1,331 nt of DNA, taken from NCBI RefSeq assembly GCF_003334315.1, contig NZ_QOWR01000117.1; one strand, written 5' to 3'. A model generated the notes under the pieces. It was not told the origin of the DNA, did no database searches, and was given only the letters and a program-made list of their open reading frames with translations. The stretch is from Escherichia coli. GTDB taxonomy: Bacteria > Pseudomonadota > Gammaproteobacteria > Enterobacterales > Enterobacteriaceae. A program made the translations under genes and the position numbers. Of this stretch, positions 1,241 to 1,303 are shown one piece after another (position 1 is the first letter of the stretch; every line of letters begins with the position of its first letter).

Positions 1241-1245
1241 TCGGA

Positions 1246-1249
1246 CTCC
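1246..1249 (-). promoter_or_regulatory. Shine-Dalgarno sequence (GGAG) for orfA
   Basis: GGAG on the minus strand, 5 nt upstream of the orfA ATG (mRNA: GUUGGAGUCCGA-AUG). Confidence 0.7.
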
Positions 1250-1268
1250 AACGACTAGTCTAAAAACT

Positions 1269-1303
1269 AGTATTAAGACTATCACTAACTTAAGTGATAC
1301 CAA
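1269..1303 (-). promoter_or_regulatory. Candidate orfA promoter spanning the inner part of the left repeat: -35 TTGGTA (1303..1298), 16-nt spacer, extended -10 TGaTAGTCT (1284..1276)
   Basis: Best sigma70-like match found by eye in the 90 nt upstream of orfA on the minus strand. The -10 is weak (T, A and final T conserved) but has an upstream TG. The hexamer assignment is tentative; IS2 is known to carry its native promoter in or next to the left inverted repeat. Confidence 0.35.
1281..1298. promoter_or_regulatory. Operator-like palindrome ATCACT-N6-AGTGAT overlapping the candidate promoter spacer and -10
   Basis: Plus strand 1281-1298 is atcactaacttaagtgat, with 6-bp arms that are exact reverse complements. 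One half-site is the conserved TATCACTTAA block shared by both terminal repeats. This is a plausible binding site for OrfA autoregulation, which is inference. Confidence 0.35.

What the first reader, a model, noticed from the sequence alone, without database searches (positions are those of the whole stretch)
1241..1303. Operator-like palindromes in the orfA leader and promoter region
Two symmetric elements lie between the left repeat and the orfA ATG. One is ATCACT-N6-AGTGAT (1281-1298), which reuses the TATCACTTAA block conserved in both terminal repeats and overlaps the candidate promoter spacer and -10. The other is a pair of ACTAGT hexamers (1254-1259 and 1266-1271) 6 nt apart, the first inside the 8-bp palindrome GACTAGTC. 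Such an arrangement fits autorepression by the small HTH OrfA protein, as reported for IS2, and would also put transposase-binding half-sites at both ends.
Basis: partly seen in the sequence, partly recalled or inferred. Interest (0 to 1): 0.4.

Follow-up and report, generated by a model that had tools for sequence, protein, structure and literature searches.

The report
IS2-type repressor operator in ISEc27
The window is the known insertion sequence ISEc27, and the first palindrome is its copy of the operator and weak promoter already worked out for its close relative IS2, while the paired ACTAGT motifs are real and strongly conserved but unexplained.

Summary
In detail: both symmetric elements lie at the stated coordinates and exceed chance. 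The window is a complete copy of ISEc27 (100% identical), an IS2-group element 81% identical to IS2, with its genes on the minus strand.

Palindrome 1 (window 1280-1299, TATCACT-N6-AGTGATA) is the ISEc27 counterpart of the published IS2 arrangement. Its left arm is the inner end of the left inverted repeat. Its right arm overlaps the extended -10 promoter TGaTAGTCT, and OrfA/InsA binds there as a repressor. ISEc27 has the same arms, the same -10 and an identical OrfA helix-turn-helix; only the centre differs. In 20 IS2-group lineages the dyad stays at this position while its arms change together with the right-end half-site. That pattern points to a protein site rather than an RNA hairpin.

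The ACTAGT pair is part of a 26-bp palindrome (1256-1281) that starts at the -10 hexamer and is centred on the predicted transcription start. It lies in the longest stretch identical between IS2 and ISEc27 (34 nt). It does not resemble the OrfA half-site and is not a dyad outside the IS2 clade. A second OrfA operator is therefore unsupported.

Overall this is known biology in a catalogued element, so interest is low.

The parts
1290..1331 (-). Left inverted repeat (IRL), L1-42, where L position = 1332 minus window coordinate. The tip TAGACT (1326-1331) is the -10 of the junction promoter in IS2.
   Evidence: Inverted repeat I1; alignment to the published 42-bp IS2 IRL.
1..41 (-). Right inverted repeat (IRR). 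Its inner end TATCACTTAA (32-41 on the + strand) is a single copy of the half-site. TGGAAA (17-22, read on the minus strand) is the -35 of the junction promoter.
   Evidence: The IRR inner flank has no dyad (score 4).
1298..1303 (-). TTGGTA (L29-34), a candidate -35 lying 16 bp upstream of TAGTCT. It is specific to the ISEc27 lineage; IS2 has CCAATA/CCAGTA.
   Evidence: L28-32 is one of the most variable stretches of the leader. Its function as a -35 is inferred only.
1280..1299 (-). Dyad 1, the operator: TATCACT (L33-39, inside IRL), TAAGTT (L40-45, centre), AGTGATA (L46-52).
   Evidence: This is the homologue of the IS2 site protected at L39-48 and assigned to OrfA.
1276..1284 (-). Extended -10 promoter PIRL, TGaTAGTCT (L48-56). 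The TG and the first TA of the hexamer lie inside the right arm of dyad 1.
   Evidence: Identical to the published IS2 PIRL. TAGTCT/TAGGCT is kept in all lineages examined.
1256..1281 (-). 26-bp palindrome TAGTCTTAATACT|AGTTTTTAGACTA (L51-76). Its left arm is the -10 hexamer and its centre (L63/64) is the predicted transcription start.
   Evidence: I5; best dyad of the element. Shuffle p about 0.02 in the IS2 clade only.
1266..1271 (-). ACTAGT, promoter-proximal copy (L61-66). It spans the predicted start site T63/A64.
   Evidence: The CTA at L62-64 is conserved in all six left ends; the TA at L63-64 is also kept in the wider set.
1253..1260 (-). GACTAGTC (L72-79), containing the second ACTAGT (L73-78, window 1254-1259). 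It lies 3 nt upstream of the ribosome-binding site.
   Evidence: It becomes ACTGGT or ACCAGT in other lineages.
1246..1249 (-). Ribosome-binding site GGAG (L83-86).
875..1240 (-). orfA (121 aa plus stop): helix-turn-helix plus a coiled-coil dimerisation region. The A_AAA_AAG frameshift site is at 917-923.
   Evidence: NF006928 'IS2 repressor TnpA', 265 bits against a cutoff of 229. Domain data for IS2.
12..917 (-). orfB (DDE transposase domain), expressed as OrfAB by a -1 frameshift.
   Evidence: NF006918 'IS2 transposase TnpB', 602 bits against a cutoff of 597.

Best explanation
The window is ISEc27, an IS2-group insertion sequence. Its left end carries the same control region as IS2.

A weak extended -10 promoter (TGaTAGTCT, window 1284-1276 on the minus strand) just inside the left inverted repeat transcribes orfA and orfAB. 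Dyad 1 (TATCACT-N6-AGTGATA, 1280-1299) is the operator. Each arm is one copy of the sequence read by the helix-turn-helix that OrfA and the OrfAB transposase share. The left arm doubles as the inner element of the left repeat, and the right repeat carries a single copy. The right arm covers the TG and the first two bases of the -10 hexamer. A dimer of OrfA bound to the dyad would therefore block RNA polymerase (autorepression) and compete with the transposase for the left end.

Shown by experiment, for IS2 only: OrfA binding and repression at this site, protection of L39-48, OrfA dimerisation, and the identity of the promoter. Shown here: ISEc27 has the same arms, -10 and helix-turn-helix, and the three half-site copies change together across lineages. 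Inferred: that ISEc27 OrfA binds and represses in the same way, and that the arms rather than the centre carry the specificity.

The ACTAGT pair belongs to a different, lineage-specific feature. It lies in the start-site region and 5' untranslated region of this promoter, arranged as a 26-bp palindrome beginning at the -10 hexamer. It is under strong constraint in the IS2 clade. My best guess, at low confidence, is that the constraint comes from promoter, start-site and leader function rather than from a second OrfA operator.
For: Identity: 100% match to ISEc27 and 81% to IS2 over the full length. OrfA and OrfB pass the curated IS2 models.

Published IS2 data: the PIRL extended -10 begins with TGAT at L48-51. 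OrfA is reported to bind just upstream as a repressor, and L39-48 is protected. OrfA residues 58-105 mediate dimerisation, and mutations in the recognition helix abolish binding.

Homology: the arms and the -10 are identical in IS2, ISEc27 and ISEc36. OrfA residues 28-54 are identical.

Comparative evidence: a dyad sits at the same position in most of 24 representative elements, with different arms in different lineages (TCAC/GTGA, TCTC/GAGA, CCTC/GAGG). On 20 lineages, 77.5% of cells are paired against 35-57% in slid registers. Two positions changed on both sides (T-A in 9 rows and A-T in 7; T-A in 12 and C-G in 3), and 0 of 500 shuffles reached the covariation score. The internal arm matches its own lineage's IRL (permutation p = 0.0025) and IRR (p = 0.04) better than those of other lineages. 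The recognition helix differs between half-site classes.

Population evidence: in 109 IS2-clade left ends the arms are invariant while the centre has four alleles.
Against: There are no binding or expression data for ISEc27 itself.

The heptamer named in the literature as the OrfA docking site (TAAATAA) is TAAGTTA in ISEc27, a change at 2 of 7 positions. If the centre rather than the arms carries specificity, repression could be weaker here.

The dyad is weak or not significant in some lineages: Paraburkholderia L051/L073/L076, Martelella L072, L026 and L005.

The covariation rests on only two or three independent switches, and the slid -3 register reaches a similar covariation score because of CTCTCT repeats.

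The left arm is constrained in any case as part of the inverted repeat, and the right arm partly by the promoter. Some of the symmetry could therefore be a by-product of those constraints.

I could not read the primary papers (Hu 1994, Lei and Hu 1997, Lewis 2004). Their content is taken from citing papers.
Confidence: 0.75

Rival explanations
1. The palindromes act as RNA hairpins. In long transcripts that begin upstream (junction promoter or read-through from host DNA), L33-52 and L61-78 would fold and modulate translation or stability of the orfA message.
For: Both hairpins appear in the minimum-free-energy fold of L13-110. All hexamer variants seen in the IS2 clade are A-to-G changes that would keep pairing as G-U wobble: L61 (L022/L123), L73 (L119) and L76 (L003, L018, L020/L021).
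Against: Fold stability is not above shuffles (z = -0.88 and -0.33). No Rfam family matches. The dyad-1 half-site also co-varies at the right repeat, where it has no pairing partner. Dyad 1 lies upstream of the predicted PIRL start. Hairpin 2 is not kept outside the IS2 clade. The wobble argument has only 3 to 5 events and about a 1-in-2 prior per transition.
Confidence: 0.08
2. Dyad 1 serves mainly the transposase, not repression. The extra inverted half-site at the left end recruits a second OrfAB subunit and helps make IRL the recipient-only end in figure-of-eight formation.
For: The OrfAB-GFP preparation protects L39-48 more strongly at IRL than the equivalent part of IRR. The dyad exists only at the left end. 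OrfA and OrfAB share the helix-turn-helix.
Against: That preparation also contained OrfA. The authors themselves assign this protection to the OrfA repressor site. The right arm overlaps the TG and the -10 in every IS2-clade copy, which is what a repressor site needs. The two roles are not exclusive.
Confidence: 0.12
3. The ACTAGT pair, or the 26-bp palindrome, is a second operator. It would be bound by OrfA or by a host protein sitting over the -10 and the start site.
For: It is the best dyad of the element and exceeds chance. It lies inside the longest stretch identical between IS2 and ISEc27, L46-79, although orfA third codon positions are only 50% identical. It is nearly invariant in 109 copies. 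The hexamers are 12 bp apart, about one helical turn. [quoted passage not shown]
Against: It has no similarity to the OrfA half-site. It is not a dyad in Aeromonas, ISKpn19-like or Sodalis lineages, which keep dyad 1 and the same spacing (p 0.3-0.99). One hexamer is ACTGGT in several apparently intact IS2-clade elements. There are no footprint data, because the IS2 substrate ended at L58.
Confidence: 0.15
4. The symmetry is a chance feature or a relic with no function.
For: Short AT-rich palindromes are common. The ACTAGT pair is lineage-specific.
Against: The motifs exceed chance. Dyad 1 keeps its position while its arms change. The region is nearly invariant next to 50% synonymous-site identity.
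Confidence: 0.03

Closest known systems
IS2 left-end control region: PIRL extended -10 promoter plus the OrfA (InsA) repressor site (Hu et al. 1994, J Mol Biol 236:503; Lewis et al. 2004, J Bacteriol 186:858; Lewis et al. 2012, Mob DNA 3:1)
   Same: Same element length (1331 bp) and the same positions. The IRL tip, the arms TATCACT/AGTGATA, TGaTAGTCT, both ACTAGT hexamers and the GGAG are identical. The OrfA helix-turn-helix is identical and OrfA is 95% identical overall.
   Different: The dyad centre is TAAGTTA instead of the published docking heptamer TAAATAA. L28-31 reads GTTG instead of AACC, which creates a -35-like TTGGTA. The spacer between the ribosome-binding site and the ATG differs. 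Nothing has been tested in ISEc27.
IS1 InsA and the IS30 N-terminal fragment: element-encoded repressors that bind the terminal repeat overlapping the transposase promoter
   Same: The logic is the same: a small DNA-binding product sharing the transposase's N-terminal domain binds an end that contains the promoter. This is cited for IS30 and for IS1 InsA in the reference lists.
   Different: These are different IS families with unrelated proteins and sites. In IS2-type elements the operator is a dyad made of one repeat-internal arm and one extra inverted copy.
IS911 OrfA (IS3 family)
   Same: Same family and the same OrfA/OrfAB organisation, with a helix-turn-helix, a leucine zipper and a junction promoter.
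   Different: According to Lewis 2012, IS911 OrfA does not act as a promoter repressor. It modulates OrfAB complexes instead.

Membership tests
ISEc27 / IS2 group of the IS3 family | Nucleotide identity to the catalogued element over its full length | tested here: met
   100% over 1331 bp to records annotated as ISEc27; 81% to IS2.
ISEc27 / IS2 group of the IS3 family | Imperfect terminal inverted repeats of about 41-42 bp | tested here: met
   33-nt arms, 79% complementary, at 9-41 and 1290-1322. They align to the published IS2 IRL and IRR.
ISEc27 / IS2 group of the IS3 family | orfA and orfB overlapping in the -1 frame at an A_AAA_AAG slippery site | tested here: met
   CAA AAA AAG at 917-925 on the minus strand. 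orfA spans 1240-875 and the orfB frame 917-12.
ISEc27 / IS2 group of the IS3 family | OrfA and OrfB pass the curated IS2 protein models | tested here: met
   NF006928, 265 bits against a cutoff of 229; NF006918, 602 bits against 597.
IS2-type OrfA operator and PIRL autorepression | Extended -10 TGnTAGTCT immediately inside IRL (L48-56) | tested here: met
   Identical sequence and position.
IS2-type OrfA operator and PIRL autorepression | Published OrfA docking heptamer TAAATAA at L40-46 | tested here: not met
   ISEc27 has TAAGTTA (5 of 7). Natural IS2 copies also carry TATTTAA, so the heptamer is not fixed even within IS2.
IS2-type OrfA operator and PIRL autorepression | Dyad symmetry across the inner edge of IRL, with arms equal to the IRR inner half-site | tested here: met
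   TATCACT/AGTGATA; IRR has TATCACTTAA.
IS2-type OrfA operator and PIRL autorepression | OrfA DNA-binding helix-turn-helix equivalent to that of IS2 InsA | tested here: met
   Residues 28-54 are identical.
IS2-type OrfA operator and PIRL autorepression | OrfA binds the site and lowers promoter activity | not testable with these tools
   Known only for IS2, from the literature.
Junction promoter of IS2-type minicircles | A -35 in the IRR and a -10 at the IRL tip, giving a 17-bp spacer when the ends abut with 1 bp between them | tested here: met
   TGGAAA, then 16 nt, then 1 junction nt, then TAGACT, as in IS2. Activity was not tested.
Structured RNA leader (any Rfam family) | Match to a curated covariance model, or a fold more stable than shuffles | tested here: not met
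   No relevant hit; z = -0.88 and -0.33.

The most novel reading that the evidence does not exclude
The near-invariant L54-79 block, with its two ACTAGT hexamers and the 26-bp palindrome centred on the PIRL start site, is a separate and so far undescribed control element of the IS2 clade. It could be a second operator for a host or element protein sitting over the -10 and +1. It could instead be an RNA hairpin that acts only on junction-promoter or read-through transcripts, so distinguishing the two steps of transposition. A smaller related point: OrfA specificity may lie in the dyad arms, with an A/T-rich centre that works in either orientation, rather than in the published TAAATAA heptamer.
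Probability: 0.25. Interest if true: 0.35.

Novelty: already known. Interest (0 to 1): 0.15.

Why it matters
The practical value is correct annotation. The window is ISEc27, and its leader can be labelled by homology with the IS2 promoter, operator and junction-promoter parts. ISEc27 and ISEc36 are common on resistance plasmids, for example next to mcr-10, so how their transposition is held in check has some relevance.

The comparative analysis adds a modest refinement. Across the IS2 group, the operator arms, both repeat inner ends and the OrfA recognition helix change together, while the centre of the dyad is free to vary and even to invert. That suggests the arms carry the specificity.

The unexplained strong constraint on the ACTAGT block is a small open question that simple reporter and footprint experiments could settle.

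Tried and rejected
RNA reading. I folded the long and short leader transcripts and scanned Rfam. Neither gave support beyond the trivial folding of palindromes.

Consensus promoter and terminator scan. It found nothing in the leader. This is uninformative for a weak extended -10 promoter, and it shows no terminator-like hairpin.

ACTAGT as trp-operator-like half-sites. From memory only, the trp operator carries ACTAGT motifs about 8 bp apart. Here the spacing is 12 bp, nothing links TrpR to IS2, and I did not pursue it.

Fis or IHF site in the leader. A rough by-eye comparison of GTTTTTAGACTAGTC with a Fis-type pattern recalled from memory looked poor. The one relevant paper (Lei et al. 2007) is not held.

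TAGACT at L70-75 as an alternative -10, with GTGATA 17 bp upstream. That would start transcription inside the ribosome-binding site, so it is unlikely to be productive. It is also not conserved outside the clade.

Pairing of IRL UCUCCA with the ribosome-binding site, as protection against read-through. This is possible in IS2 and ISEc27 but absent in other lineages. I considered it by eye only.

Primary papers (PMC179535, PMC321474, PMC178403, PMID 8107136) and one bioRxiv look-up failed. Two reviews added nothing.

My first covariation statistic is diluted, because the TA of the -10 was included in the arm and several representatives share the same arms. Its effect size is small although significant.

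Full report
WHAT THE WINDOW IS

The 1331-base window is a complete insertion sequence with its genes on the minus strand. It is 100% identical over its full length to copies annotated as ISEc27 in E. coli chromosomes and in many Klebsiella, Citrobacter and Enterobacter plasmids. It is 81% identical over its full length to IS2.

On the minus strand, orfA (121 aa) starts at 1240. orfB overlaps it in the -1 frame at an A_AAA_AAG site (917-923). OrfA passes NCBI's curated model 'IS2 repressor TnpA' and OrfB passes 'IS2 transposase TnpB'.

I use L coordinates counted from the left tip, where L = 1332 minus the window coordinate. The left repeat IRL is L1-42 (window 1331-1290). The right repeat IRR is window 1-41.

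CHECK OF THE OBSERVATION

- ATCACT-N6-AGTGAT is at 1281-1298 and extends to TATCACT/AGTGATA at 1280-1299.
- ACTAGT is at 1254-1259 and at 1266-1271.
- GACTAGTC is at 1253-1260.
- TATCACTTAA is in both repeats.

The first pattern is expected 0.04 times in the window even with two mismatches allowed. Two ACTAGT copies occurred in 0 of 200 shuffles.

A scan of the whole element for dyads places two leader dyads among the top four. They are L51-76, a 26-bp palindrome that has one ACTAGT at its centre and the -10 hexamer as its left arm, and L33-52. The inner flank of the right repeat has nothing comparable.

WHAT IS ALREADY KNOWN

For IS2 this region has been dissected experimentally. Lewis et al. 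2012 (PMC3299598) summarise the following.
- IRL is 42 bp.
- A weak extended -10 promoter, PIRL, begins with TGAT at L48-51.
- OrfA (InsA, 14 kDa) binds just upstream as a repressor, with a 'docking site' given as TAAATAA (citing Hu et al. 1994).
- An OrfAB/OrfA preparation protects L39-48.
- Joining of the ends creates a stronger junction promoter that needs a 17-bp spacer.

The companion paper (PMC3219604) reports that OrfA residues 58-105 mediate dimerisation (citing Lei and Hu 1997), that residues 73-100 form a coiled coil, and that mutations in the second helix of the helix-turn-helix abolish binding. I could not obtain the primary papers.

MAPPING ONTO ISEc27

Aligned with the IS2 copy L001 and with ISEc36, ISEc27 has the same arms (TATCACT, AGTGATA), the same TGaTAGTCT, the same two ACTAGT hexamers and the same GGAG. 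Within L1-91, the differences from that IS2 copy are confined to these positions:
- L28-31, where GTTG replaces AACC and creates TTGGTA 16 bp upstream of TAGTCT;
- L43 and L45, in the dyad centre, where TAAGTTA replaces TAAATAA;
- L80;
- L87, 88, 90 and 91, between the ribosome-binding site and the ATG.

OrfA is 95% identical to IS2 OrfA overall and identical through residues 28-54. The junction-promoter parts are also kept: TGGAAA, then 16 nt plus 1 junction nt, then TAGACT.

COMPARATIVE TEST OF DYAD 1

I collected 80 further loci encoding OrfA relatives of 66-100% identity, from one genome per species, plus four plasmid relatives. In almost all of them the ATG lies 91-92 nt from the tip. A TAGTCT or TAGGCT hexamer sits at the same place.

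Directly upstream of that hexamer there is again a dyad, but with different arms in different lineages:
- TATCACTTA-AA-TAAGTGATA in IS2;
- TCACTTA-A-TAAGTGA in Rahnella and Buttiauxella;
- CCTCTTAA-C-TTAAGAGG in Aeromonas (perfect 8+8);
- TCTCTTAA-C-TTAAGAGA in L042;
- CTCTTA-AAA-TAAGAG in ISKpn19-like elements;
- TATCTC-N7-GAGATA in Sodalis and Pantoea.

On an alignment of 20 lineages, 77.5% of dyad cells are complementary against 35-57% in slid registers. Two positions changed on both sides (T-A in 9 rows and A-T in 7; T-A in 12 and C-G in 3). None of 500 shuffles reached the observed covariation score.

The right repeat of each lineage carries the same variant half-site. Examples are TAAGAGAG in the ISKpn19-like elements and GTATCT in Sodalis. 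A test that allows the same shifts for all comparisons shows that the internal arm matches its own lineage's IRL (5.85 against 5.22 of 8, permutation p = 0.0025) and IRR (p = 0.04) better than those of other lineages.

The predicted recognition helix differs between half-site classes: [10 protein letters not shown] with TCAC, NANQIFKWRR or NANQLFKWRK with TCTC/CCTC, and QPSLLFKWKK with GTATCT. Residue 44, where an S44N substitution is listed in the IS2 mutant collection, is N in the TCTC/CCTC lineages.

Because the right-repeat copy has no pairing partner, three-site co-variation points to a protein recognition sequence rather than an RNA or DNA hairpin.

Three caveats apply. The number of independent switches is small (two or three). 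One slid register scores similarly on covariation because of CTCTCT repeats. The dyad is weak in Paraburkholderia, Martelella and a few degraded copies.

ARMS VERSUS CENTRE

I compared 109 IS2-clade left ends. Of these, 21 were selected through the protein or the window. The other 88 were selected through an exact match to L46-60, so those positions are uninformative in that subset.

The arms L33-41 and L46-52 are invariant, apart from one copy that differs at L33. The centre has four alleles: TTAAATAA (76 copies), TTATTTAA (18), TTAAGTTA (10) and TTAAATTA (4). The second allele is the exact reverse complement of the first across the whole 20-bp dyad.

So the published docking heptamer is not fixed even among IS2 copies. 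This suggests, but does not prove, that the arms carry the specificity and that the centre only needs to be A/T-rich.

THE ACTAGT PAIR

This block is under real constraint in the IS2 clade. The longest stretch identical between IS2 and ISEc27 anywhere in the element is L46-79 (34 nt), although orfA third codon positions are only 50% identical. L54-79 shows only three singleton variants among the 25 distinct sequences found in the 109 left ends.

However, the block has no similarity to the OrfA half-site. Outside the IS2 clade the homologous block reads AACTATGTTTAACACCAGTC, AGCTATGTTCAGTACTAGTC or AATATATGTCTAACACTAAC. These share several positions with the IS2-clade block but are neither a hexamer pair nor a dyad (shuffle p 0.3-0.99).

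The T-A step at L63/64 is conserved in these lineages. It lies 7-8 nt after the -10 hexamer and has the usual pyrimidine(-1)/purine(+1) pattern. I therefore infer that transcription starts at about A64 (window 1268), which is the centre of the 26-bp palindrome. The second ACTAGT would then be at +10 to +15 of a 28-nt leader.

The IS2 DNA used for footprinting ended at L58, so this block was not examined there. No held paper mentions it.

RNA RIVAL

The palindromes fold, as any palindrome would, but the leader is not more stable than shuffled sequence (z = -0.88 and -0.33). No Rfam family matches.

One observation remains in favour of RNA pairing for the ACTAGT hairpin. Every hexamer variant seen in the clade is an A-to-G change that would keep a G-U pair: L61, L73, and L76 in three lineages. 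With so few events, and about a one-in-two prior per transition, this is only suggestive. Such a hairpin could exist only in transcripts that start upstream of PIRL.

CONCLUSION

Dyad 1 is the ISEc27 homologue of the IS2 OrfA operator overlapping PIRL.

The ACTAGT pair is a real, constrained, clade-specific feature of the start-site and leader region whose function is not established. The evidence does not support it as a second OrfA site.

The finding concerns a catalogued element and a described mechanism. I rate it already known and of low interest, with a small residual question about the ACTAGT block.

Noticed in passing
window 1280-1299; IS2-clade loci among L086-L165 (e.g. L086, L095, L097, L117, L119): Among 109 IS2-clade left ends, 76 carry TATCACTTAAATAAGTGATA and 18 carry its exact reverse complement, TATCACTTATTTAAGTGATA. 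The asymmetric centre of the dyad is therefore inverted in a sizeable minority of natural IS2 copies. That is the kind of change expected from template switching at a quasi-palindrome.
   Followed up: partly
window 17-22 and 1326-1331: The parts of the IS2 junction promoter are conserved in ISEc27: TGGAAA in the right repeat and TAGACT at the left tip. They would be 17 bp apart if the ends abut with one base between them.
   Followed up: partly
window 917-925 (minus strand): The frameshift site reads CAA AAA AAG, a run of seven A. In IS2, seven A created by insertion fuses orfA and orfB. Here the extra A comes from a GCA-to-CAA codon change, so the reading frames stay as in wild-type IS2.
   Followed up: yes
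window 1257-1262 (L70-75) versus 1326-1331 (L1-6): The left-tip sequence TAGACTGG recurs as TAGACTAG inside the leader, and the -10 hexamer TAGTCT is its inverted form. This is seen only in the IS2 clade and its meaning is unknown.
   Followed up: no
window 427-444: An 18-bp palindrome inside orfB, TTACTGGCCGCCCAGTAA, scores as high as the leader dyads in the whole-element scan.
   Followed up: no
L004:1501-1866, L003:1501-1863, L026 (orfA): Several relatives are defective. The copy next to qnrS1 on an IncX3 plasmid (L004) has an in-frame stop in orfA. L003 has lost the frameshift region. L026 has a stop inside the helix-turn-helix.
   Followed up: partly
L002:1-937 and 1501-2729: ISEc36, whose OrfA is identical to that of ISEc27 and whose leader is the same, lies directly downstream of mcr-10.1 on an Enterobacter roggenkampii plasmid.
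   Followed up: no
L052-L069, L075, L078-L085: Candidatus Sodalis endolongispinus carries at least 27 copies of one IS2-group element among the 80 loci returned. Most are near-identical in the leader, which indicates a large recent expansion.
   Followed up: no
L012, L045, L071: IS2-group OrfA sequences (73-98% identical to the query) turn up in assemblies of unexpected organisms: a 1.5-kb contig of Lamprocystis purpurea, a 3.7-kb contig of a Lachnospiraceae MAG and a 0.9-kb contig of [Ruminococcus] torques. These are more likely contamination than genuine hosts.
   Followed up: no
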